DNA from: Escherichia coli
GTDB lineage: Bacteria > Pseudomonadota > Gammaproteobacteria > Enterobacterales > Enterobacteriaceae
DNA length: 64,000 nucleotides
Direction: 5' to 3' (one strand)
NCBI RefSeq assembly: GCF_046105845.1
Contig: NZ_CP151004.1
Part shown: in pieces, positions 4,010 to 48,335 of the stretch
Position numbering within the stretch: position 1 is the stretch's first letter
Layout of the letters: every line of letters begins with the position of its first letter
Notes under the pieces: model-generated
What the model saw: only the letters and a program-made list of their open reading frames with translations
Databases searched by the model: none
Told to the model about the DNA's origin: nothing
Translations under genes and position numbers: made by a program

Positions 4010-7000
4010 ATGAATAGAATCTATCGCGTGATATGGAATTGCACCCTACAGGTATTTCAGGCCTGCTCGGAATTAACTCGCAGGGTAGGTAAAACATCAA
4101 CGGTTAATTTGCGTAAATCCTCTGGACTGACAACGAAATTCAGTAGATTGACGCTGGGTGTTTTGCTGGCACTAAGCGGTTCAGCGTCTGGTGCGAGTCT
4201 GGAAGTTGATAATGATCAGATTATCAATATTGATACTGATGTTGCTTATGATGCCTACCTGGTTGGGTGGTATGGCACTGGAGTGCTTAATATTTTGGCT
4301 GGCGGTAATGCCTCCTTAACCACTATTACTACCAGCGTCATTGGTGGTAATGAGAACTCGAAGGGCACCGTTAATGTTTTGGGTGGCACCTGGCGATTGT
4401 ATGATAGCGGAAATAATGCAAGGCCTTTAAATGTGGGCCAATCCGGAACGGGGATGCTGAATATTAAACAGAAGGGGCACGTTGACGGAGGCTATTTAAG
4501 ATTAGGTACTCAAGCTGTAGGCGTCGGGATGGTTAATGTTGAGGGAGAGGACTCGGTTCTGACGACCGAATTATTCGAAATAGGGAGTTACGGTACAGGC
4601 TCATTAAATATTACGGATAAGGGTTACGTCACGAGTTCAATCGTCGCCATTGTAGGATATCAGGCGAACAGCACTGGTAAGGTTGTCGTTGAAAAGGGTG
4701 GCGAGTGGCTAATAAAAAATAATGATTCCTCAATTGAATTTCAAATTGGTAATCAAGGAACTGGGGAGGCGACTATTCGCGAGGGTGGACTGATTACGGC
4801 TGAAAATACGATTATCGGTGGCAATGCCACCGGTATCGGAACCCTGAATGTGCAGGATCAAGACTCTGTCATCACGGTACGCAGAGTCTATAATGGATAT
4901 TTCGGTAATGGCACAGTCAATATTTCCAATAATGGACTGATTAATAATAAAGAATATTCATTGGTGGGCGTTCAGGACGGGTCCCACGGTGTCGTCAACG
5001 TGACCAATAAAGGGCATTGGAATTTCCTCGGAACGGGCGAAGCTTTCCGCTATATCTATATCGGTGATGCTGGCGACGGTGAACTTAATGTCTCTAGTGA
5101 AGGCAAAGTAGATTCGGGAATTATCACTGCGGGGATGAAAGAAACAGGCACAGGCAACATTACTATTAAGGATAAGAACTCCATTATCACTAATCTCGGA
5201 ACTAATCTTGGTTATGACGGCCACGGCGAAATGAATATCAGTAATGAGGGGCTTGTTATCAGCAACGGAGGAAGCTCACTCGGTTATGGAGAAACCGGCG
5301 TCGGGAAGGTTAGCATCACCACGGGGGGGATGTGGGAGGTCAATAAGAATGTCTATACCACCATTGGTGTTGCGGGCGTCGGAAACCTCAATATCAGCGA
5401 TGGCGGTAAGTTCGTATCGCAAAATATTACTTTTTTGGGCGATAAAGCAAGCGGTATCGGCACACTGAACCTGATGGATGCGACATCATCGTTCGATACT
5501 GTAGGTATCAATGTCGGTAATTTTGGTAGCGGCATCGTAAATGTCAGTAATGGTGCCACCCTTAATTCAACGGGCTATGGATTTATCGGAGGAAATGCCT
5601 CCGGTAAGGGGATAGTTAATATTTCAACGGATAGTCTCTGGAATTTAAAAACGTCATCTACTAACGCCCAATTGTTACAGGTCGGTGTATTAGGCACGGG
5701 TGAACTGAATATTAGCACCGGAGGTATAGTTAAAGCGCGTGATACACAAATAGCTCTCAATGACAAAAGTAAGGGCGACGTGCGGGTGGATGGGCAGAAC
5801 TCTCTTCTTGAAACATTCAATATGAACGTAGGGACGACTGGCACAGGTACGTTAACCCTGACGAATAACGGTACGCTGAATGTCGAAGGTGGAGAAGTTT
5901 ACTTAGGTGTTTTTGCGCCTGCTGTAGGAACGCTAAACATTGGTGCTGCTCACGGTGAGGCGGCGGCAGATGCCGGATTTATCACCAATGCGACGAAAGT
6001 GGAGTTTGGTCTTGGCGAAGGCGTTTTTGTCTTTAATCATACCAATAACAGTGATGCCGGCTACCAGGTCGATATGCTGATTACGGGTGACGATAAAGAC
6101 GGAAAAGTGATGCATGATGCAGGCCATACGGTGTTCAATGCAGGGAATACTTATAGCGGTAAAACGTTGGTCAATGGCGGCCTCCTGACCATTGCGTCAC
6201 ATACGGCAGATGGGGTAACGGGCATGGGTTCGAGTGAAGTAACCATTGCAAACCCCGGTACGCTCGACATTCTCGCATCAACGAACAGTGCAGGAGATTA
6301 CACGCTGACCAATGCGCTCAAAGGCGATGGCTTGATGCGAGTGCAGCTGTCATCCTCCGACAAAATGTTTGGCTTTACCCATGCAACAGGAACTGAATTC
6401 GCCGGTGTTGCCCAACTGAAAGACAGTACCTTCACACTGGAACGCGACAACACCGCTGCGCTTACTCACGCGATGCTTCAGTCTGACAGTGAAAATACCA
6501 CATCGGTAAAAGTGGGAGAGCAATCCATTGGTGGACTAGCCATGAATGGCGGTACGCTCACTTTCGATACGGATATACCTGCTGCGACGCTCGCGGAGGG
6601 ATATATCAGCGTCGATACGCTGGTTGTCGGCGCGGGTGACTACACCTGGAAAGGCCGTAACTATCAGGTAAACGGGACGGGCGACGTGCTTATCGACGTG
6701 CCTAAACCGTGGAATGATCCCATGGCGAATAACCCTCTGACGACGCTCAATTTGCTGGAACACGATGATAGTCATGTCGGCGTTCAACTGGTGAAGGCGC
6801 AAACGGTTATTGGGTCGGGTGGCTCATTAACGTTACGTGATTTACAGGGCGACGAGGTGGAAGCGGACAAAACGTTACATATTGCACAAAACGGGACAGT
6901 GGTCGCCGAGGGTGATTATGGATTCCGCCTCACGACCGCTCCTGGTGATGGTTTGTATGTTAACTATGGGCTGAAAGCGCTGAACATCCATGGTGGGCAA

Positions 7001-39658: not shown

Positions 39659-42058
39659 ATGAAGCTAACCGATGCGGATAATGCCGCCGATGGCATTTTT
39701 TTCCCCGCCCTTGAGCAAAATATGATGGGCGCGGTGTTAATTAACGAAAATGATGAAGTGATGTTTTTCAACCCCGCCGCAGAGAAGCTCTGGGGGTACA
39801 AACGTGAAGAAGTTATTGGCAATAACATTGATATGCTGATTCCGCGGGATTTGCGTCCCGCGCATCCTGAATACATCCGTCACAACCGTGAAGGCGGTAA
39901 AGCGCGCGTCGAGGGGATGAGTCGGGAGCTGCAGCTGGAGAAAAAAGACGGCAGTAAAATCTGGACCCGTTTTGCGCTATCGAAAGTGAGCGCCGAGGGT
40001 AAAATTTATTACCTGGCGCTGGTACGAGATGCCAGCGTAGAAATGGCGCAAAAAGAACAGACCCGACAATTGATTATTGCCGTTGACCATCTCGACCGAC
40101 CGGTGATTGTCCTCGATCCGGAACGCCATATTGTGCAGTGCAATCGCGCATTTACCGAAATGTTTGGTTACTGCATTAGCGAAGCCAGCGGTATGCAGCC
40201 CGATACACTCCTGAACATTCCAGAATTCCCTGCTGATAACCGCATTCGTTTACAACAGTTGCTATGGAAAACCGCCCGCGATCAGGACGAATTTCTGCTG
40301 TTGACGCGCACCGGTGAAAAAATCTGGATTAAAGCCTCTATCAGCCCGGTCTATGATGTGCTCGCGCATCTGCAGAACCTGGTAATGACTTTCTCGGATA
40401 TCACCGAAGAACGGCAAATCCGCCAGCTTGAAGGCAATATTCTCGCCGCCATGTGCAGCAGCCCGCCATTTCATGAAATGGGGGAAATCATTTGTCGTAA
40501 CATCGAATCTGTTCTCAACGAATCGCATGTTTCGCTGTTCGCGCTGCGCAACGGGATGCCGATACACTGGGCGTCATCTTCGCACGGTACAGAAGTTCAA
40601 AATGCGCAAAGCTGGTCAGCGACCATTCGTCAGCGTGATGGCGCGCCGGCGGGGATCCTGCAAATTAAAACCTCGTCAGGAGCAGAAACCAGCGCCTTTA
40701 TCGAACGCGTGGCAGATATCAGCCAGCATATGGCCGCGCTGGCGCTGGAACAGGAAAAAAGCCGTCAGCATATTGAACAACTCATCCAATTTGATCCGAT
40801 GACCGGTCTGCCAAATCGCAATAACCTGCACAATTACCTCGATGACCTGGTCGACAAAGCCGTCTCTCCGGTGGTGTATCTCATCGGTGTTGACCATATT
40901 CAGGATGTGATTGATAGCCTTGGCTATGCGTGGGCCGATCAGGCATTGCTGGAAGTGGTCAATCGCTTTCGTGAAAAACTCAAACCGGATCAGTATCTCT
41001 GTCGTATCGAAGGTACGCAGTTTGTCCTCGTGAGCCTGGAAAACGACGTCAGTAACATTACCCAGATCGCCGATGAGCTACGGAATGTGGTCAGCAAGCC
41101 GATAATGATTGACGATAAACCATTCCCGCTTACCTTGAGTATTGGCATCAGCTACGACGTGGGTAAAAACCGCGATTACCTGCTCTCCACTGCTCACAAT
41201 GCAATGGATTATATTCGCAAGAATGGCGGTAACGGCTGGCAGTTCTTCAGCCCGGCGATGAACGAAATGGTAAAAGAGCGTTTGGTTTTAGGCGCAGCGC
41301 TGAAAGAAGCGATTAGCAATAACCAACTGAAACTGGTTTACCAGCCACAAATCTTCGCAGAAACGGGTGAACTCTACGGCATCGAAGCCCTTGCTCGCTG
41401 GCACGATCCCCTGCATGGTCATGTGCCCCCTTCACGGTTTATTCCTCTCGCAGAAGAGATTGGTGAAATCGAAAATATTGGGCGCTGGGTCATCGCGGAA
41501 GCTTGCCGTCAGTTAGCAGAATGGCGTAGCCAGAATATTCATATCCCGGCGTTATCCGTTAACTTGTCGGCGCTGCACTTTCGCAGTAATCAACTGCCTA
41601 ATCAGGTGTCTGATGCAATGCACGCCTGGGGTATTGACGGCCACCAGCTGACGGTGGAAATCACGGAAAGCATGATGATGGAACACGATACCGAAATCTT
41701 TAAGCGCATTCAGATCCTGCGCGATATGGGCGTGGGTTTATCGGTAGATGATTTTGGCACGGGCTTTTCCGGATTATCCCGCTTAGTCAGTCTTCCGGTA
41801 ACGGAAATCAAAATTGACAAAAGTTTTGTCGATCGTTGTCTGACCGAAAAACGCATCCTTGCCTTACTTGAAGCCATTACCAGCATTGGGCAAAGCCTTA
41901 ATTTAACCGTCGTGGCGGAAGGCGTCGAAACCAAAGAGCAATTTGAGATGCTACGCAAGATCCACTGTCGCGTTATTCAGGGATATTTCTTTTCCCGCCC
42001 CCTGCCCGCCGAAGAAATTCCAGGCTGGATGAGCAGCGTGTTACCGCTGAAAATCTGA
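39659..42058 (+). CDS. dosP: Heme/oxygen-sensing c-di-GMP phosphodiesterase DosP (PAS-PAS-GGDEF-EAL)
   Basis: 799-aa product MKLTDADNAADGIFFPALEQNMMGAVLINEND…; EAL motif region (…YGIEALARW…); matches K-12 DosP. Confidence 0.95.
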   Translation: MKLTDADNAADGIFFPALEQNMMGAVLINENDEVMFFNPAAEKLWGYKREEVIGNNIDMLIPRDLRPAHPEYIRHNREGGKARVEGMSRELQLEKKDGSKIWTRFALSKVSAEGKIYYLALVRDASVEMAQKEQTRQLIIAVDHLDRPVIVLDPERHIVQCNRAFTEMFGYCISEASGMQPDTLLNIPEFPADNRIRLQQLLWKTARDQDEFLLLTRTGEKIWIKASISPVYDVLAHLQNLVMTFSDITEERQIRQLEGNILAAMCSSPPFHEMGEIICRNIESVLNESHVSLFALRNGMPIHWASSSHGTEVQNAQSWSATIRQRDGAPAGILQIKTSSGAETSAFIERVADISQHMAALALEQEKSRQHIEQLIQFDPMTGLPNRNNLHNYLDDLVDKAVSPVVYLIGVDHIQDVIDSLGYAWADQALLEVVNRFREKLKPDQYLCRIEGTQFVLVSLENDVSNITQIADELRNVVSKPIMIDDKPFPLTLSIGISYDVGKNRDYLLSTAHNAMDYIRKNGGNGWQFFSPAMNEMVKERLVLGAALKEAISNNQLKLVYQPQIFAETGELYGIEALARWHDPLHGHVPPSRFIPLAEEIGEIENIGRWVIAEACRQLAEWRSQNIHIPALSVNLSALHFRSNQLPNQVSDAMHAWGIDGHQLTVEITESMMMEHDTEIFKRIQILRDMGVGLSVDDFGTGFSGLSRLVSLPVTEIKIDKSFVDRCLTEKRILALLEAITSIGQSLNLTVVAEGVETKEQFEMLRKIHCRVIQGYFFSRPLPAEEIPGWMSSVLPLKI

Positions 42059-42255
42059 CAAATTCCTCTCGCCCGCACTCGCGGGTTTTCCTTTAAAGTG
42101 ACACTGTCACTTAAATACTGTGATTTCAGCTACGATTCCGGGAGATTCCTTCCTTAACTTCCCCTCTTGCACCAAAACTGCACTACGCTGCACAAATGTT
42201 GATCAAAAGTTAAAAAATATAACTTTAAGCCAGCATTCTGGCGCTTATCCCGGCA

Positions 42256-42271
42256 TGGCATGAGATCTGCA
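42256..42271 (+). promoter_or_regulatory. Sigma54-type -24/-12 promoter element TGGCAT-N5-CTGCA upstream of ddpX
   Basis: GG and GC dinucleotides with correct spacing (consensus TGGCAC-N5-TTGCA), 45 bp upstream of ddpX ATG; ddp operon is known to be nitrogen (NtrC) regulated. Confidence 0.6.
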
Positions 42272-42315
42272 TAAGCGGAAAGCGCAGCAATTTTTGTCTT
42301 ATACAGGAACCGTTT

Positions 42316-42897
42316 ATGTCGGATACCACCGAACTGGTTGATTTAGCCGTGATCTTCCCTGATCTGGAGATCGAATTGAAATACGCCTGCGCTGATAACA
42401 TCACAGGTAAAGCTATTTATCAGCAAGCGCGTTGTCTGTTACACAAGGATGCGATTACCGCGCTGGCGAAAAGTATCAGTATCGCCCAGCTGTCAGGCTT
42501 ACAACTGGTGATTTACGATGCGTATCGCCCACAACAAGCACAGGCGATGTTGTGGCAAACCTGCCCAGACCCGCAATATGTTGTTGATGTGGCGGTCGGT
42601 TCTAATCACAGCCGTGGCACGGCGATCGACCTGACGCTTCGTGATGAGCACGGGAACATCCTGGATATGGGTGCAGAGTTCGATGAAATGCACGAACGTT
42701 CCCATGCTTATCACCCTTCCGTCCCGCCCGCTGCTCAGCGCAATCGGCTGTTGCTGAATGCGATTATGACTGGCGGTGGCTTTGTCGGTATCCCGAGCGA
42801 ATGGTGGCACTTCGAATTACCCCTGGCAGCGAGTTACCCACTACTCGCTGATCAATTCACCTGTTTTATATCCCCTGGCACACAGCACGCCAGTTAA
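42316..42897 (+). CDS. ddpX: D-Ala-D-Ala dipeptidase (VanX-like)
   Basis: 193-aa ORF MSDTTELVDLAVIFPDLEIELKYACADNITG…; matches K-12 DdpX. Confidence 0.95.
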   Translation: MSDTTELVDLAVIFPDLEIELKYACADNITGKAIYQQARCLLHKDAITALAKSISIAQLSGLQLVIYDAYRPQQAQAMLWQTCPDPQYVVDVAVGSNHSRGTAIDLTLRDEHGNILDMGAEFDEMHERSHAYHPSVPPAAQRNRLLLNAIMTGGGFVGIPSEWWHFELPLAASYPLLADQFTCFISPGTQHAS

Positions 42898-42910
42898 TCA
42901 GGAAACTGTC

Positions 42911-44461
42911 ATGAAGAGATCGATATCGTTTCGTCCTACATTGCTCGCGATCGTCCTTGCCACAACAATGCCGGTTGCGCACGCCGCCGTACCGAAAGAT
43001 ATGCTGGTGATCGGTAAAGCTGCCGACCCACAAACCCTCGACCCAGCGGTGACAATTGATAATAACGACTGGACAGTGACCTACCCGTCTTATCAGCGAC
43101 TGGTTCAGTACAAAACGGACGGTGATAAAGGCTCAACCGACGTTGAAGGCGATCTGGCGAGTAGCTGGAAAGCGTCTGACGATCAAAAAGAGTGGACGTT
43201 CACCCTGAAGGACAATGCTAAATTTGCCGATGGCACACCTGTCACTGCCGAAGCAGTAAAACTCTCTTTTGAGCGGTTACTAAAAATCGGCCAGGGGCCA
43301 GCAGAAGCATTTCCCAAAGATTTAAAGATTGATGCTCCCGACGAACATACGGTGAAGTTTACCCTTAGCCAACCATTCGCACCGTTCCTCTACACGCTGG
43401 CGAATGACGGTGCATCCATTATCAATCCGGCGGTCTTAAAGGAACATGCAGCGGATGATGCCCGTGGTTTCCTCGCGCAAAATACCGCTGGCTCCGGACC
43501 GTTTATGCTGAAAAGCTGGCAAAAAGGTCAGCAATTAGTTCTGGTGCCAAATCCGCATTACCCCGGTAATAAACCGAATTTCAAACGGGTATCGGTAAAA
43601 ATTATCGGTGAAAGTGCTTCCCGTCGCCTGCAGCTCTCCCGTGGCGACATTGACATTGCCGATGCGCTGCCGGTGGATCAACTCAACGCACTGAAGCAGG
43701 AAAACAAAGTCAATGTGGCAGAGTATCCGTCACTGCGCGTCACCTATCTGTATCTGAATAACAGCAAAGCGCCACTTAATCAGGCGGATCTGCGTCGGGC
43801 CATTTCCTGGTCTACCGATTATCAGGGTATGGTTAACGGCATTCTGAGTGGTAACGGAAAACAAATGCGCGGCCCGATTCCGGAAGGCATGTGGGGATAC
43901 GATGCGACGGCAATGCAATACAACCATGACGAAACGAAAGCCAAAGCCGAATGGGATAAAGTGACGAGCAAACCCACCAGCCTGACGTTTCTCTATTCTG
44001 ATAATGATCCGAACTGGGAGCCTATTGCTCTGGCGACACAATCCAGTCTCAACAAGCTGGGCATCAATGTGAAGCTGGAAAAGCTGGCGAACGCCACCAT
44101 GCGCGACAGAGTGGGTAAAGGTGATTACGACATTGCGATTGGCAACTGGAGCCCGGATTTTGCCGACCCGTATATGTTTATGAATTACTGGTTTGAGTCA
44201 GACAAAAAAGGTCTGCCGGGTAACCGCTCGTTCTATGAAAACAGTGAGGTCGATAAGCTACTGCGCAATGCGCTAGCGACCACCGACCAGACGCAGCGTA
44301 CCCGGGACTACCAGCAGGCACAGAAAATCGTCATTGATGACGCTGCTTATGTGTACCTGTTCCAGAAAAACTACCAACTGGCGATGAACAAAGAGGTGAA
44401 AGGTTTTGTGTTCAATCCCATGCTGGAACAGGTCTTCAATATCAATACCATGAGTAAATAA
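42911..44461 (+). CDS. ddpA: Dipeptide ABC transporter periplasmic binding protein
   Basis: 516-aa product with signal peptide MKRSISFRPTLLAIVLATTMPVAHA; SBP family 5. Confidence 0.9.
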   Translation: MKRSISFRPTLLAIVLATTMPVAHAAVPKDMLVIGKAADPQTLDPAVTIDNNDWTVTYPSYQRLVQYKTDGDKGSTDVEGDLASSWKASDDQKEWTFTLKDNAKFADGTPVTAEAVKLSFERLLKIGQGPAEAFPKDLKIDAPDEHTVKFTLSQPFAPFLYTLANDGASIINPAVLKEHAADDARGFLAQNTAGSGPFMLKSWQKGQQLVLVPNPHYPGNKPNFKRVSVKIIGESASRRLQLSRGDIDIADALPVDQLNALKQENKVNVAEYPSLRVTYLYLNNSKAPLNQADLRRAISWSTDYQGMVNGILSGNGKQMRGPIPEGMWGYDATAMQYNHDETKAKAEWDKVTSKPTSLTFLYSDNDPNWEPIALATQSSLNKLGINVKLEKLANATMRDRVGKGDYDIAIGNWSPDFADPYMFMNYWFESDKKGLPGNRSFYENSEVDKLLRNALATTDQTQRTRDYQQAQKIVIDDAAYVYLFQKNYQLAMNKEVKGFVFNPMLEQVFNINTMSK

Positions 44462-44462
44462 C

Positions 44463-45485
44463 GTGACCTTCTGGAGTATTTTACGCCAACGCTGCTGGGG
44501 GCTGGTGCTCGTGGTGGCGGGCGTCTGTGTGATTACGTTTATTATCTCGCATCTTATCCCCGGCGATCCGGCGCGGTTACTGGCGGGTGACCGCGCCAGC
44601 GATGCTATCGTGGATAATATTCGCCAGCAACTGGGACTGGACCAGCCACTGTACGTACAGTTTTACCGCTACGTCAGCGACCTGTTTCAGGGTGACCTGG
44701 GAACATCCATTCGTACCGGGCGTCCGGTGCTGGAAGAGTTGCGCATATTTTTCCCGGCGACGCTGGAACTGGCTTTTTGTGCCCTGCTGCTGGCACTCCT
44801 GATTGGCATCCCGCTGGGCATACTCTCTGCAGTCTGGCGAAATCGCTGGCTGGATCATCTGGTGCGAATAATGGCCATTACCGGAATCTCCACACCTGCG
44901 TTCTGGCTTGGGCTGGGCGTCATTGTGCTGTTTTATGGTCATCTGCAAATTCTTCCCGGCGGCGGAAGGCTTGATGACTGGCTGGATCCACCAACGCACG
45001 TTACCGGCTTTTATCTGCTCGATGCGCTGCTTGAAGGCAACGGTGAAGTCTTCTTCAATGCGCTGCAACATCTCATCTTACCGGCATTAACGCTGGCGTT
45101 CGTTCACCTGGGAATTGTCGCTCGCCAGATCCGCTCAGCGATGCTGGAACAATTGAGTGAAGACTACATTCGTACCGCCCGGGCCAGCGGCTTGCCCGGC
45201 TGGTATATCGTTTTATGTTATGCGCTACCCAATGCGTTGATCCCCTCGATTACCGTATTGGGGCTGGCGCTGGGCGATTTGTTGTATGGCGCAGTGCTCA
45301 CCGAAACCGTTTTTGCCTGGCCCGGAATGGGGGCATGGGTAGTGACATCAATACAGGCGCTCGACTTCCCTGCGGTGATGGGATTTGCCGTCGTGGTTTC
45401 GTTTGCTTATGTGCTGGTGAACCTGGTGGTGGATTTGCTCTATTTGTGGATTGATCCGCGTATCGGACGTGGAGGTGGTGAATGA
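44463..45485 (+). CDS. ddpB: Dipeptide ABC transporter permease
   Basis: 340-aa, GTG start, DppB-like permease. Confidence 0.9.
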   Translation: MTFWSILRQRCWGLVLVVAGVCVITFIISHLIPGDPARLLAGDRASDAIVDNIRQQLGLDQPLYVQFYRYVSDLFQGDLGTSIRTGRPVLEELRIFFPATLELAFCALLLALLIGIPLGILSAVWRNRWLDHLVRIMAITGISTPAFWLGLGVIVLFYGHLQILPGGGRLDDWLDPPTHVTGFYLLDALLEGNGEVFFNALQHLILPALTLAFVHLGIVARQIRSAMLEQLSEDYIRTARASGLPGWYIVLCYALPNALIPSITVLGLALGDLLYGAVLTETVFAWPGMGAWVVTSIQALDFPAVMGFAVVVSFAYVLVNLVVDLLYLWIDPRIGRGGGE

Positions 45486-46378
45486 TGCTAAGCGAGGAAA
45501 CGTCAGCCGTGCGCCCACCAAAACAAACGCGATTTAACGGTGCAAAACTGGTATGGATGCTGAAAGGCAGCCCGCTTACCGTGACCGGCGCAGTCATCAT
45601 TGTATTAATGCTACTGATGATGATTTTTTCACCGTGGCTGGCGACGCATGATCCCAACGCCATTGATTTAACCGCCCGCCTTTTGCCGCCTTCTGCGGCG
45701 CACTGGTTTGGCACCGATGAAGTGGGACGCGATCTGTTTAGCCGCGTACTGGTCGGCAGTCAGCAATCAATTCTCGCCGGATTAGTGGTAGTCGCCATTG
45801 CAGGTATGATGGGGTCGCTACTCGGGTGTCTATCCGGTGTGCTTGGCGGACGCGCAGACGCGATTATCATGCGCATCATGGACATTATGCTGTCGATTCC
45901 TTCGCTGGTGCTGACAATGGCACTGGCAGCCGCTCTCGGTCCGAGTTTGTTTAACGCCATGCTGGCGATTGCTATTGTGCGAATTCCCTTTTATGTGCGC
46001 CTGGCGCGGGGGCAAACATTAGTTGTTCGCCAGTACACTTACGTTCAGGCGGCGAAAACCTTTGGTGCGTCACGCTGGCATCTGATCAACTGGCATATTT
46101 TACGTAACTCCCTGCCGCCGCTGATTGTGCAGGCATCGCTGGATATCGGTAGCGCGATTTTAATGGCCGCCACGTTGGGATTTATTGGCCTGGGTGCTCA
46201 ACAACCGAGTGCTGAATGGGGGGCGATGGTGGCGAATGGTCGCAACTATGTGCTCGATCAATGGTGGTATTGCGCATTTCCGGGGGCAGCGATTTTGCTT
46301 ACCGCCGTCGGGTTTAATCTCTTTGGCGATGGTATTCGCGATCTGCTTGACCCGAAAGCAGGAGGAAAGCAGTCATGA
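45482..46378 (+). CDS. ddpC: Dipeptide ABC transporter permease
   Basis: 298-aa DppC-like permease; ATGA overlap with ddpB stop. Confidence 0.9.
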   Translation: MMLSEETSAVRPPKQTRFNGAKLVWMLKGSPLTVTGAVIIVLMLLMMIFSPWLATHDPNAIDLTARLLPPSAAHWFGTDEVGRDLFSRVLVGSQQSILAGLVVVAIAGMMGSLLGCLSGVLGGRADAIIMRIMDIMLSIPSLVLTMALAAALGPSLFNAMLAIAIVRIPFYVRLARGQTLVVRQYTYVQAAKTFGASRWHLINWHILRNSLPPLIVQASLDIGSAILMAATLGFIGLGAQQPSAEWGAMVANGRNYVLDQWWYCAFPGAAILLTAVGFNLFGDGIRDLLDPKAGGKQS

Positions 46379-47361
46379 CCCAACCCGTTCTGGACATTCA
46401 ACAGCTGCATTTGAGTTTCCCCGGTTTTAACGGCGACGTTCACGCGCTCAACAATGTGTCATTGAAAATCAACCGCGGTGAAATTGTCGGTCTGGTGGGA
46501 GAATCCGGCTCGGGTAAATCAGTCACTGCAATGTTGATTATGCGTCTGCTACCGACGGGCAGTTATTGCGTACATCGGGGGCAGATTTCACTGCTGGGAG
46601 AAGATGCTCTTAACGCTCGGGAAAAGCAGCTTCGTCAGTGGCGCGGCGCACGAGTGGCGATGATCTTTCAGGAACCGATGACCGCCCTTAATCCGACACG
46701 TCGAATAGGTCTTCAGATGATGGACGTGATCCGCCATCATCAGCCAATAAGTCGTCGGGAAGCCAGAGCTAAAGCGATTGCCCTGCTGGAAGAGATGCAA
46801 ATCCCGGATGCCGTGGAAGTTATGTCGCGCTATCCGTTTGAGCTTTCAGGTGGTATGCGCCAGCGGGTAATGATTGCGCTGGCATTCTCCTGCGAGCCGC
46901 AATTGATTATTGCCGACGAACCGACTACGGCGCTGGACGTCACGGTACAGTTGCAGGTACTGCGTCTGCTTAAACATAAAGCCCGCGCCAGTGGAACTGC
47001 GGTACTGTTCATCAGCCATGATATGGCCGTGGTGTCGCAACTGTGCGATAGCGTTTACGTGATGTATGCCGGAAGCGTGATTGAGAGCGGCGTGACGGCA
47101 GACGTTATCCATCATCCCCGGCATCCGTATACCATTGGTTTGCTGCAATGCGCACCGGAACATGGAATACCGCGCCAGCCATTACCCGCCATTCCAGGGA
47201 CGGTACCAAACCTCACCCATTTGCCTGACGGCTGCGCTTTTCGCGATCGTTGCTATGCGGCAGGTGCACAGTGTGAAAACGTCCCGGCGCTGACAGCGTG
47301 TGGTGACAACAACCACCGCTGCGCCTGTTGGTATCCTCAGCAGGAGGTCATTAGTGTCTGA
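46375..47361 (+). CDS. ddpD: Dipeptide ABC transporter ATP-binding protein
   Basis: 328-aa, Walker A GESGSGKS, signature LSGGMRQR. Confidence 0.9.
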   Translation: MTQPVLDIQQLHLSFPGFNGDVHALNNVSLKINRGEIVGLVGESGSGKSVTAMLIMRLLPTGSYCVHRGQISLLGEDALNAREKQLRQWRGARVAMIFQEPMTALNPTRRIGLQMMDVIRHHQPISRREARAKAIALLEEMQIPDAVEVMSRYPFELSGGMRQRVMIALAFSCEPQLIIADEPTTALDVTVQLQVLRLLKHKARASGTAVLFISHDMAVVSQLCDSVYVMYAGSVIESGVTADVIHHPRHPYTIGLLQCAPEHGIPRQPLPAIPGTVPNLTHLPDGCAFRDRCYAAGAQCENVPALTACGDNNHRCACWYPQQEVISV

Positions 47362-48280
47362 CACGTTATTAACGTTACGCGACGTCCATATCAATTTCCC
47401 TGCCCGAAAAAACTGGCTTGGTAAAACTACGGAACATGTTCATGCCATCAATGGTATTGATTTACAGATCCGTCGTGGTGAAACCTTAGGGATCGTCGGT
47501 GAGTCAGGCTGCGGCAAAAGCACCCTCGCACAGCTTTTAATGGGTATGCTGCAACCGAGCCACGGGCAGTACATCCGTTCAGGATCACAACGCATTATGC
47601 AGATGGTGTTTCAGGACCCGCTCTCTTCGCTTAATCCGCGCTTACCGGTGTGGCGCATCATCACGGAACCGCTCTGGATTGCTAAGCGTAGTAGTGAACA
47701 ACAGCGGCGAGCGTTGGCAGAGGAGCTGGCTGTGCAGGTGGGTATTCGTCCGGAGTATCTCGACCGCTTGCCTCATGCGTTCTCAGGCGGGCAGCGGCAA
47801 CGTATCGCCATTGCCAGAGCACTCTCTTCGCAGCCTGACGTGATTGTGCTTGATGAACCAACCTCGGCGCTGGATATCTCCGTGCAGGCGCAGATCCTCA
47901 ATTTACTGGTAACGCTACAGGAAAATCGCGAGCTGACTTATGTGCTGATTTCACACAATGTCTCGGTGATACGTCATATGAGCGATCGGGTGGCGGTGAT
48001 GTATCTCGGACAGATTGTGGAACTAGGAGACGCGCAACAGGTGCTGACAGCTCCGGCACATCCATACACCCGATTATTGCTGGATTCCCTCCCCGCCATT
48101 GATAAACCGCTGGAGGAAGAATGGGCATTACGTAAAACGGATCTGCCGGGAAACCGCACGTTGCCACAAGGCTGTTTTTTCCGCGAACGCTGCCCTCTGG
48201 CAACCCACGGATGTGAAGTCCGGCAATCATTAACAATAAGGGAGGACGGACGTGAGATCCGGTGCTGGCGGGCGCTGTAG
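47354..48280 (+). CDS. ddpF: Dipeptide ABC transporter ATP-binding protein
   Basis: 308-aa from GTG 47354 (VSDTLLTLRDVHINF…), Walker A GESGCGKST, signature FSGGQRQR; 8-bp overlap with ddpD. Confidence 0.85.
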   Translation: MSDTLLTLRDVHINFPARKNWLGKTTEHVHAINGIDLQIRRGETLGIVGESGCGKSTLAQLLMGMLQPSHGQYIRSGSQRIMQMVFQDPLSSLNPRLPVWRIITEPLWIAKRSSEQQRRALAEELAVQVGIRPEYLDRLPHAFSGGQRQRIAIARALSSQPDVIVLDEPTSALDISVQAQILNLLVTLQENRELTYVLISHNVSVIRHMSDRVAVMYLGQIVELGDAQQVLTAPAHPYTRLLLDSLPAIDKPLEEEWALRKTDLPGNRTLPQGCFFRERCPLATHGCEVRQSLTIREDGREIRCWRAL

Positions 48281-48282
48281 AG

Positions 48283-48335
48283 ACGCTAACAACGCATCAG
48301 GCAATCACGCGCCTGACGCGTCATCCGGCAACGCT
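48283..48335. repeat. REP-like palindromic element between convergent ddpF and osmC
   Basis: …CGCATCAGGCAATCACGCGCCTGACGCGTCATCCGGCA… imperfect GC-rich palindromes resembling REP units. Confidence 0.4.

What the first reader, a model, noticed from the sequence alone, without database searches (positions are those of the whole stretch)
42256..42315. Sigma54 -24/-12 element upstream of ddpX
TGGCAT-N5-CTGCA sits about 45 bp upstream of the ddpX start, consistent with nitrogen-regulated (NtrC) expression of the D-Ala-D-Ala dipeptidase and dipeptide transporter operon. The ddp genes are tightly coupled (4- and 8-bp overlaps at ddpB/C, ddpC/D, ddpD/F).
Basis: partly seen in the sequence, partly recalled or inferred. 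Interest (0 to 1): 0.3.

Follow-up and report, generated by a model that had tools for sequence, protein, structure and literature searches.

The report
Known sigma-54 promoter of ddpXABCDF

Summary
ATGGCATGAGATCTGCA lies at 42255-42271 (+), with GG at 42257-58 and GC at 42269-70 at canonical spacing, 44 nt before the ddpX ATG at 42316. The stated ddpB/C, ddpC/D and ddpD/F overlaps (4, 4 and 8 bp) are real.

Sequence alone is not significant. It is the best sigma-54 PWM hit in the window (15.9 bits), but shuffles give 0.57 such hits per window. Position, conservation and published experiments decide the case.

The window is 100% identical to E. coli K-12 from 42098 to ddpX. In K-12 this exact 17-mer is a sigma-54 ChIP-seq site (Bonocora 2015, OS16, predicted start 34 nt before ddpX). 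NtrC also binds there (ChIP-seq, Brown 2014; gel shift, Shimada 2021), and ddpX mRNA rises 104-fold on nitrogen depletion.

New here: a sigma-54 element heads the operon in about 70 other Enterobacterales loci. A 46-bp NtrC-like upstream block (42168-42213) is conserved across several genera. Most other genera also carry an RpiR/SapR-like gene and a TGTTA-N6-TAACA inverted repeat between promoter and ddpX, which Escherichia lacks.

Verdict: interpretation supported, already known, low interest.

The parts
42255..42271 (+). Sigma-54 -24/-12 promoter element ATGGCATGAGATCTGCA (GG at 42257-58, GC at 42269-70)
   Evidence: PWM score 15.85 bits, the top hit of the window. Identical to published sigma-54 ChIP-seq site OS16 of K-12. 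Invariant in the four Escherichia sequences aligned.
42282..42282 (+). Predicted transcription start (+1), inferred and not mapped
   Evidence: Bonocora rule: 19 bp downstream of the motif centre (42263). This gives 34 nt to the ATG at 42316, matching their 'Distance 34'.
42282..42315 (+). Predicted 34-nt 5' leader with Shine-Dalgarno AGGA at 42305-42308, 7 nt before the ATG
   Evidence: The RBS segment ACAGGAAcCGT is homologous to the rpiR-like/ddpX junction of Citrobacter. No Rfam match.
42168..42213 (+). Conserved 46-bp upstream block, the putative NtrC enhancer. Site A is TGCACCAAAACTGCACT (42168-42184, centre about -106). Site B is TGCACAAATGTTGATCA (42189-42205, centre about -85). The two sites are 21 bp apart and are followed by a conserved GTTAA.
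   Evidence: Sites A and B match the NtrC consensus TGCACCAnnnTGGTGCA at 9/14 and 10/14 positions. The block is conserved across Escherichia, Citrobacter, Enterobacter, Mixta and MAG L037 while its flanks are not. NtrC-like sites are enriched at -170..-50 in 54 of 70 loci against 4.6% of control windows. Assigning NtrC to this exact block is an inference.
42316..42897 (+). ddpX, D-Ala-D-Ala dipeptidase (193 aa), first gene of the operon
   Evidence: Pfam Peptidase_M15 at 2.4e-77. NCBIfam PRK10178 at 327.7 bits, above its cutoff of 176. RefSeq annotation.
42911..48280 (+). ddpA (42911-44461), ddpB (44463-45485), ddpC (45482-46378), ddpD (46375-47361) and ddpF (47354-48280): tightly coupled ABC transporter genes
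   Evidence: Gene lengths and overlaps match the K-12 annotation.
42068..42086 (+). Terminator-like hairpin with a T run after the dosP stop (42058), marking the upstream boundary of the ddp regulatory region

Best explanation
This is ddpXp, the sigma-54 (RpoN)-dependent, NtrC-activated promoter of the E. coli ddpXABCDF operon.

RNA polymerase carrying sigma-54 binds the GG/GC element at 42255-42271 and sits as a closed complex. Under nitrogen limitation, phosphorylated NtrC assembles on upstream DNA. The most likely site is the conserved block at 42168-42213, which holds two half-consensus NtrC sites on the same helical face at about -106 and -85. NtrC contacts the polymerase by DNA looping and uses ATP hydrolysis to open the promoter.

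Transcription should start near 42282 and give a 34-nt leader. It then reads through six translationally coupled genes that import and cleave D-Ala-D-Ala, a nitrogen-scavenging function.

Shown by published K-12 experiments on identical sequence: sigma-54 occupancy, NtrC binding to the region, and strong induction on nitrogen depletion. Inferred: the exact start site, the exact NtrC sites, and the looping geometry.
For: - Canonical motif and spacing. It is the top PWM hit in the window and falls mid-range among real sigma-54 sites.
- No sigma-70-like promoter in 41950-42450.
- The window is identical to K-12 from 42098 to ddpX.
- Published sigma-54 ChIP-seq site with this exact 17-mer.
- Published NtrC ChIP-seq peak.
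- gSELEX, gel shifts with NtrC and RpoN holoenzyme, and 104.5-fold ddpX induction on nitrogen depletion.
- A sigma-54 element of 12-18.5 bits heads the operon in about 70 of 80 Enterobacterales loci.
- The upstream block is conserved while its flanks diverge, and NtrC-like sites are enriched at enhancer distance.
- In E. coli strains lacking ddp, the missing segment starts at about 42138, so enhancer, promoter and operon come and go as one unit.
Against: - The motif alone is not statistically significant in 64 kb.
- I found no experimentally mapped 5' end. EcoCyc listed the promoter only as 'predicted' in 2015.
- E. coli has no canonical palindromic NtrC box, the best match being 10/14.
- The NtrC ChIP-seq interval coincides with the promoter itself rather than the upstream block, so it does not localise the enhancer.
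- ddpXA also appears RpoS-dependent in EDL933, so sigma-54 may not be the only input.
- ddpF rose only 2.2-fold against 104.5-fold for ddpX, so whole-operon read-through is not uniform.
Confidence: 0.93

Rival explanations
1. The site binds sigma-54 holoenzyme but is not a productive promoter. It would be a poised or repressive binding site of the kind Bonocora 2015 and Shimada 2021 describe, with ddpX transcribed from elsewhere.
For: Bonocora et al. stress that binding sites are not necessarily promoters. Shimada et al. propose repressive RpoN sites. I found no mapped start site.
Against: ddpX rises 104.5-fold on nitrogen depletion, and the authors conclude activation requires RpoN and NtrC. 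No alternative sigma-70-like promoter exists in the 257-bp intergenic region. dosP ends in a terminator-like hairpin. The element is conserved at the operon head across genera.
Confidence: 0.03
2. A second promoter dependent on sigma-S or sigma-70 also drives ddpX in stationary phase. The sigma-54 element would then be only one of two inputs.
For: ddpXA is listed among RpoS-dependent genes in E. coli O157:H7 EDL933. From my own memory, not retrieved here: Lessard et al. 1998 reported RpoS-dependent stationary-phase ddpX expression.
Against: The consensus scan finds no -35/-10 pair between dosP and ddpX. The only -10-like hexamers have no usable -35 (TATAAC at 42218, read) or would start inside the ribosome-binding site (TATACA at 42300). 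The RpoS effect could be indirect.
Confidence: 0.2
3. The promoter depends on sigma-54, but the activator acting at the conserved upstream block is an enhancer-binding protein other than NtrC.
For: The block lacks a canonical NtrC palindrome in E. coli. Its conserved right halves (TTGATCA, GTTAA) are not NtrC consensus.
Against: NtrC ChIP-seq and NtrC gel shift on the ddpX region are published. More distant genera carry near-canonical NtrC palindromes at the same distance, for example TGCACCTTCTTTGTGCA at 12/14. In the two loci whose upstream neighbour I examined, L017 and L005, it is not an enhancer-binding protein gene.
Confidence: 0.04
4. The match is a chance occurrence of the consensus with no function.
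For: Shuffled windows yield 0.46-0.57 equally good matches.
Against: Published in vivo sigma-54 occupancy at exactly this 17-mer. Invariance in Escherichia. Positional conservation in about 70 loci from many genera.
Confidence: 0.01

Closest known systems
ddpXp of E. coli K-12 MG1655 (sigma-54 site OS16 in Bonocora et al. 2015, an NtrC target in Brown et al. 2014 and Shimada et al. 2021)
   Same: It is the same locus. The 17-mer is identical and the whole region from 42098 to ddpX is 100% identical. The predicted leader is also 34 nt.
   Different: Nothing in the promoter differs. The window has two substitutions further upstream, at 42091 and 42097, outside the conserved block.
Other NtrC-dependent sigma-54 promoters of E. 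coli: argT (ATGGCATAAGACCTGCA), yeaG (ATGGCATGAGAGTTGCT), and glnAp2, glnHp2, astC, nac
   Same: All share the same -24/-12 architecture. argT and yeaG share the ATGGCAT..AGA variant of the -24 half with ddpX, and argT also shares CTGCA at -12. They belong to the same nitrogen-scavenging regulon.
   Different: From established knowledge, not tested here: glnAp2 has two strong palindromic NtrC sites. ddpX has only two 9-10/14 sites with good left halves (TGCACCA, TGCACAA) and degenerate but conserved right halves, 21 bp apart.
Orthologous promoters heading rpiR-like-ddpXAB... operons in Citrobacter, Enterobacter, Serratia, Pantoea, Raoultella, Brenneria and Mixta
   Same: They carry a sigma-54 element of 12-18.5 bits and an NtrC-like site or block 75-135 bp upstream. 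The enhancer block is nearly identical to E. coli in Citrobacter and Enterobacter.
   Different: In those genera a TGTTA-N6-TAACA inverted repeat follows the promoter, starting 1-2 nt after the -12 element in most and 17 nt after it in the Serratia loci. A 284-288 aa RpiR/SapR-like gene precedes ddpX. Escherichia lacks both, so its promoter abuts ddpX directly.

Membership tests
Sigma-54 (RpoN) -24/-12 promoter | A GG dinucleotide and a GC dinucleotide separated by exactly 10 bp within TGGCAC-N5-TTGCW | tested here: met
   TGGCAT-GAGAT-CTGCA, with GG at 42257-58 and GC at 42269-70. It differs from the strict consensus at 2 positions.
Sigma-54 (RpoN) -24/-12 promoter | A weight-matrix score within the range of experimentally bound sites | tested here: met
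   15.85 bits with a leave-one-out PWM of 41 ChIP-seq sites. The training range is 9.0-21.4 with a median of 16.2. It is the best hit of the window.
Sigma-54 (RpoN) -24/-12 promoter | Intergenic, oriented toward a downstream gene, at a plausible leader distance | tested here: met
   It lies in the 257-bp dosP-ddpX spacer on the + strand. The predicted start at 42282 gives a 34-nt leader with an AGGA ribosome-binding site.
Sigma-54 (RpoN) -24/-12 promoter | Occupancy by sigma-54 holoenzyme | not testable with these tools
   Published for K-12: ChIP-seq peak OS16 (FAT 10) with this 17-mer, and gSELEX and gel shift with RpoN holoenzyme. Here I only showed that the sequence is identical to K-12.
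Sigma-54 (RpoN) -24/-12 promoter | A transcription start mapped about 11-12 nt downstream of the GC, dependent on rpoN | not tested
   I found no mapped 5' end in the papers read. EcoCyc status was 'predicted' in 2015. Shimada 2021 says RegulonDB lists ddpX as experimentally confirmed.
Sigma-54 (RpoN) -24/-12 promoter | Evolutionary conservation of the element at the operon head | tested here: met
   It is invariant in the Escherichia sequences. A 12-18.5 bit element sits at a fixed position ahead of the first operon gene in about 70 of 80 Enterobacterales loci.
NtrC (GlnG)-activated promoter of the Ntr regulon | NtrC binding sites (TGCACCAnnnTGGTGCA) about 80-150 bp upstream | tested here: inconclusive
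   E. coli has no site matching 11/14 or better. Two sites of 9/14 and 10/14, centred at about -106 and -85, lie inside a 46-bp block conserved across genera. Distant genera carry 11-12/14 palindromes at the same distance, and the enrichment is 54/70 loci against 4.6% of controls.
NtrC (GlnG)-activated promoter of the Ntr regulon | NtrC binding to the region and ntrC-dependent induction under nitrogen limitation | not testable with these tools
   Published: NtrC ChIP-seq peak at ddpXABCDF, NtrC gel shift with a ternary complex, and 104.5-fold induction in an experiment that included rpoN and ntrC mutants.
IHF-assisted sigma-54 promoter | An IHF site (WATCAANNNNTTR) between enhancer and promoter | tested here: not met
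   Read by eye. GATCAAAAGTTAA (42201-42213) misses the consensus at 2 of 9 specified positions and in effect has a spacer 1 nt short. The region is A/T-rich with A-tracts, so intrinsic bending remains possible (inference).

The most novel reading that the evidence does not exclude
The Escherichia ddp promoter may be a stripped-down derivative of an ancestral Enterobacterales control region. In most other genera the same sigma-54 promoter and NtrC-like enhancer are followed by a TGTTA-N6-TAACA inverted repeat over the start site and by an RpiR/SapR-like regulator gene as first cistron, which implies dual control by nitrogen status plus a specific signal. Escherichia, and independently the MAG L037, lack roughly 0.9 kb that carries both. 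That would leave nitrogen limitation as the only dedicated control of D-Ala-D-Ala scavenging. The whole enhancer-promoter-operon unit is itself a presence/absence cassette in E. coli, absent from about 22% of complete genomes.
Probability: 0.55. Interest if true: 0.3.

Novelty: already known. Interest (0 to 1): 0.1.

Why it matters
For the finding itself it matters little. It re-identifies a documented member of the E. coli Ntr regulon, in which D-Ala-D-Ala from cell-wall turnover is scavenged as a nitrogen and carbon source, and it shows that the first-stage reader can spot genuine sigma-54 promoters by eye.

The comparative by-products have modest value. They pinpoint a probable NtrC enhancer (42168-42213) that could be footprinted. 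They also suggest that E. coli lost a specific RpiR-family control layer that other enteric bacteria keep, which could explain why no specific inducer of ddp is known in E. coli.

Tried and rejected
- **Significance from sequence alone.** Both the strict pattern and the PWM give about 0.5 expected hits per shuffled window, so I did not rely on this.
- **Canonical NtrC palindrome in E. coli.** None reaches 11/14 in the spacer. The three direct TGCAC repeats at 42168, 42179 and 42189 looked suggestive, but the middle one is TGAAC in most Citrobacter and all Enterobacter loci. Only the outer two are treated as conserved half-sites.
- **Second sigma-54 promoter at 42166-42182** (CTTGCACCAAAACTGCA, 12.9 bits, third-best hit in the window). 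Rejected as a promoter because it lacks the GG and its -12 half is not conserved (GTGAA in Enterobacter). It is more likely NtrC-like site A.
- **Sigma-70 or sigma-S promoter.** None found by the scan, and the manual candidates are implausible.
- **IHF site.** No canonical match.
- **Structured RNA or riboswitch in the leader.** No Rfam match at E <= 1.
- **Localising the enhancer with the NtrC ChIP-seq coordinates.** The reported 80-bp intervals coincide with the sigma-54 element itself at ddpX, and also at glnH, rutA, astC and nac. They cannot resolve the upstream sites.
- **Retrieving Reitzer & Schneider 2001 and Zimmer et al. 2000.** Neither paper is held.
- **A dedicated enhancer-binding protein gene next to the operon in other genera.** The upstream neighbours are an alpha/beta hydrolase (L017) and an HdeA/HdeB-family protein (L005), not an activator.

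Full report
**What is in the sequence**

The + strand reads ...ccggcATGGCATGAGATCTGCAtaagcgg.... TGGCAT occupies 42256-42261, the 5-nt spacer 42262-42266 and CTGCA 42267-42271. The GG (42257-58) and GC (42269-70) are at the canonical sigma-54 spacing.

The first ORF downstream starts with ATG at 42316. Pfam Peptidase_M15 (2.4e-77) and NCBIfam PRK10178 (327.7 bits, cutoff 176) identify it as D-alanyl-D-alanine dipeptidase. A Shine-Dalgarno AGGA lies at 42305-42308.

The upstream gene is dosP, which ends at 42058 and is followed by a terminator-like hairpin at 42068-42086. The neighbourhood dosC-dosP-ddpXABCDF-osmC matches annotated E. coli chromosomes.

ddpB/ddpC and ddpC/ddpD overlap by 4 bp. 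ddpD/ddpF overlap by 8 bp, with GTG at 47354 and the ddpD stop ending at 47361. The ddpX-ddpA gap is 13 nt and the ddpA-ddpB gap is 1 nt.

**Is it more than chance?**

On sequence alone it is not. The strict pattern occurs once in the window against 0.46 expected. The consensus with up to 2 mismatches occurs 34 times against 38.7 expected.

I built a PWM from the 41 other intergenic sense sigma-54 ChIP-seq sites in Table 1 of Bonocora et al. 2015, leaving the ddpX site out. The site scores 15.85 bits. This is the best hit in the whole window on either strand and the 46th percentile of the real sites. Shuffled windows nevertheless contain 0.57 hits this good.

What exceeds chance is the placement. 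The site is on the right strand in a 257-bp spacer, a leader's length upstream of an operon start. By scaling, about 4e-4 such hits are expected in a given 100-bp strand-specific stretch. Conservation, described below, adds to this.

**Published experiments on the same DNA**

The window is 100% identical to K-12 MG1655 from 42098 through the start of ddpX. Only two substitutions lie further upstream.

- Bonocora et al. (PMC4591121) list sigma-54 ChIP-seq peak OS16 with the motif ATGGCATGAGATCTGCA, fold-above-threshold 10. The gene is ddpX and the distance from the predicted start to the gene is 34 bp. EcoCyc status was then 'predicted'.
- Applying their rule (start 19 bp downstream of the motif centre, here 42263) puts +1 at 42282, which is 34 nt before the ATG.
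- Brown et al. (PMC4066584) list an NtrC ChIP-seq peak at ddpXABCDF.
- Shimada et al. (PMC8743547) recovered the dos/ddpX spacer by gSELEX. They showed NtrC-probe, RpoN-holoenzyme-probe and ternary complexes on a ddpX probe.
- The same paper measured a 104.5-fold rise of ddpX mRNA (2.2-fold for ddpF) on nitrogen depletion, in an experiment that included rpoN and ntrC deletion strains. The authors describe ddpX as a known NtrC-dependent RpoN promoter.

**Comparative evidence generated here**

A scan of one genome per species with the DdpX protein returned 80 loci. The 17-mer is identical in the Escherichia loci.

In most other genera no sigma-54 element lies directly upstream of ddpX. This covers Citrobacter, Enterobacter, Lelliottia, Raoultella, Serratia, Pantoea, Brenneria and Mixta. 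In these genera ddpX is preceded, 13 bp away in L013, by a 284-288 aa gene on the same strand. That gene carries an RpiR-type HTH_6 domain. It resembles NCBIfam SapR at 400 bits, below the 500-bit cutoff.

A 12-18.5 bit sigma-54 element sits about 920-1055 bp upstream of ddpX, which is about 55-75 bp ahead of that regulator gene. The background rate of hits of 12 bits or more in my window is about 4 per 128 kb. Finding one at a fixed position in roughly 70 of 80 loci is strong evidence that a sigma-54 promoter is an ancestral feature of this operon.

One MAG (L037) has a stand-alone ddpX with a 15.4-bit element 39 bp upstream.

**The likely enhancer**

In E. coli the best matches to the NtrC consensus TGCACCAnnnTGGTGCA (quoted in PMC8743547) are weak:

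- TGCACAAATGTTGATCA at 42189-42205, matching 10/14 positions.
- TGCACCAAAACTGCACT at 42168-42184, matching 9/14 positions.
- A third 9/14 match at 42179.

There is no canonical palindrome. An alignment anchored on the promoter nevertheless shows a 46-bp block, TGCACCAAAAnTGnACTAcGCTGCACAnnTGTTGATCnnnnGTTAA (42168-42213). It is almost invariant from Escherichia to Citrobacter and Enterobacter, and recognisable in Mixta and L037, while the flanks are unalignable.

The two conserved TGCAC half-sites are 21 bp apart, so they lie on the same helical face. Their sites are centred at about -106 and -85 from the predicted start. More distant genera have near-canonical palindromes at the same distance, for example TGCACCTTCTTTGTGCA at 12/14. 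Overall, 54 of 70 loci have a match of 10/14 or better at -170..-50, against 4.6% of control windows. The loci are related, so this is not an independent-sample statistic.

I conclude that this block is probably where NtrC binds. That is an inference. The published ChIP intervals coincide with the sigma-54 element itself at this and other promoters and cannot resolve it.

**Mechanism**

E-sigma54 forms a closed complex on 42255-42271. Under nitrogen limitation NtrC~P oligomerises on the upstream block, loops to the polymerase and drives open-complex formation. Transcription starts near 42282 and runs into ddpXABCDF.

Shown in published work: sigma-54 and NtrC occupancy, and strong induction. 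Inferred: the start point, the exact NtrC sites, and how the DNA bends. There is no canonical IHF site, but the intervening DNA is A-tract rich.

A possible additional sigma-S input has no recognisable promoter in the spacer.

**Comparison with known promoters, and novelty**

This is the same object as the documented ddpXp of K-12. Among other Ntr promoters, argT (ATGGCATAAGACCTGCA) and yeaG (ATGGCATGAGAGTTGCT) share its ATGGCAT..AGA variant of the -24 half, and argT also shares CTGCA at -12. Novelty class: already known. Interest is low.

**Side observations**

- 61 of 72 anchored loci have a TGTTA-N6-TAACA inverted repeat downstream of the promoter. In most it starts 1-2 nt after the -12 element (about -9 to +7). 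In the Serratia loci it starts 17 nt after it. It occurs in loci that carry the RpiR/SapR-like gene, and Escherichia and L037 lack both.
- The E. coli ribosome-binding segment ACAGGAAcCGT is homologous to the regulator/ddpX junction of Citrobacter. This suggests that about 0.9 kb was deleted in the Escherichia lineage.
- About 22% of complete E. coli genomes lack the entire unit at about 42138-48291, with dosP running straight into osmC.
- Neither observation changes the verdict on the finding.

Noticed in passing
L004-L081 (for example L017 2134-2988, L005 2120-2986, L013 2046-2130), compared with window 42272-42315: In most non-Escherichia Enterobacterales a 284-288 aa RpiR-family gene is the first cistron ahead of ddpX. 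It has an HTH_6 domain and matches NCBIfam SapR at 400 bits, below the 500-bit cutoff. 61 of 72 loci carry a TGTTA-N6-TAACA inverted repeat, starting 1-2 nt after the -12 element in most loci (17 nt after it in Serratia), and a second imperfect copy can be seen in the Citrobacter and Enterobacter leaders. Escherichia and MAG L037 lack both gene and repeat. This is probably an autoregulated repressor/operator pair lost by a roughly 0.9-kb deletion.
   Followed up: partly
window about 42138-48291, compared with L082 5040-5110: The whole enhancer-promoter-ddpXABCDF unit is a presence/absence polymorphism in E. coli. 4217 of 5426 complete genomes carry the promoter region. About 560 keep only the left flank, and in the one such genome examined (L082) dosP runs directly into osmC with about 70 bp of unrelated filler. 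About 650 show no match at all.
   Followed up: partly
window 42096-42112: A perfect 17-bp palindrome, AAGTGACACTGTCACTT, lies just after the dosP terminator. Its core GTGACACTGTCAC is invariant in all Escherichia sequences aligned, including the ddp-less strain and K-12. The core pattern with up to 1 mismatch is expected 0.05 times per window and is found twice (the other at 1619-1631). It matches no regulator motif I could name, and its function is unknown.
   Followed up: partly
window 42166-42182: CTTGCACCAAAACTGCA is the third-best sigma-54 PWM hit of the window (12.9 bits), 89 bp upstream of the real element on the same strand. It lacks the GG, and its -12 half is not conserved in Enterobacter. 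It overlaps NtrC-like site A. Shimada et al. saw two or three RpoN-holoenzyme bands on the ddpX probe, which it might explain.
   Followed up: partly
literature on K-12 ddpX to ddpF (window 42316-48280): On nitrogen depletion ddpX mRNA rose 104.5-fold but ddpF, the last gene, rose only 2.2-fold (PMC8743547). This implies strong polarity, attenuation or differential mRNA decay along an operon whose genes are tightly coupled.
   Followed up: no
L001 7417-8821 (E. coli Z1323HEC0462): In the E. coli genome with the best overall match to the window, ddpX is annotated as shortened (516 bp) and the ddpA homologue as an N-terminally truncated pseudogene. The operon is therefore decaying in some strains even though the promoter is intact.
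   Followed up: no
L037 2840-3660: An Enterobacterales MAG has a stand-alone ddpX (its downstream neighbour is on the opposite strand). It carries its own sigma-54 element (CTGGCACAGACGCTGCA, 15.4 bits, 39 bp upstream) and a recognisably homologous upstream block. The promoter/enhancer module therefore travels with ddpX even without the transporter genes.
   Followed up: partly
window 6111-6127 (- strand): This is the second-best sigma-54 PWM hit in the window (ATGGCCTGCATCATGCA, 13.3 bits). I did not examine its context.
   Followed up: no
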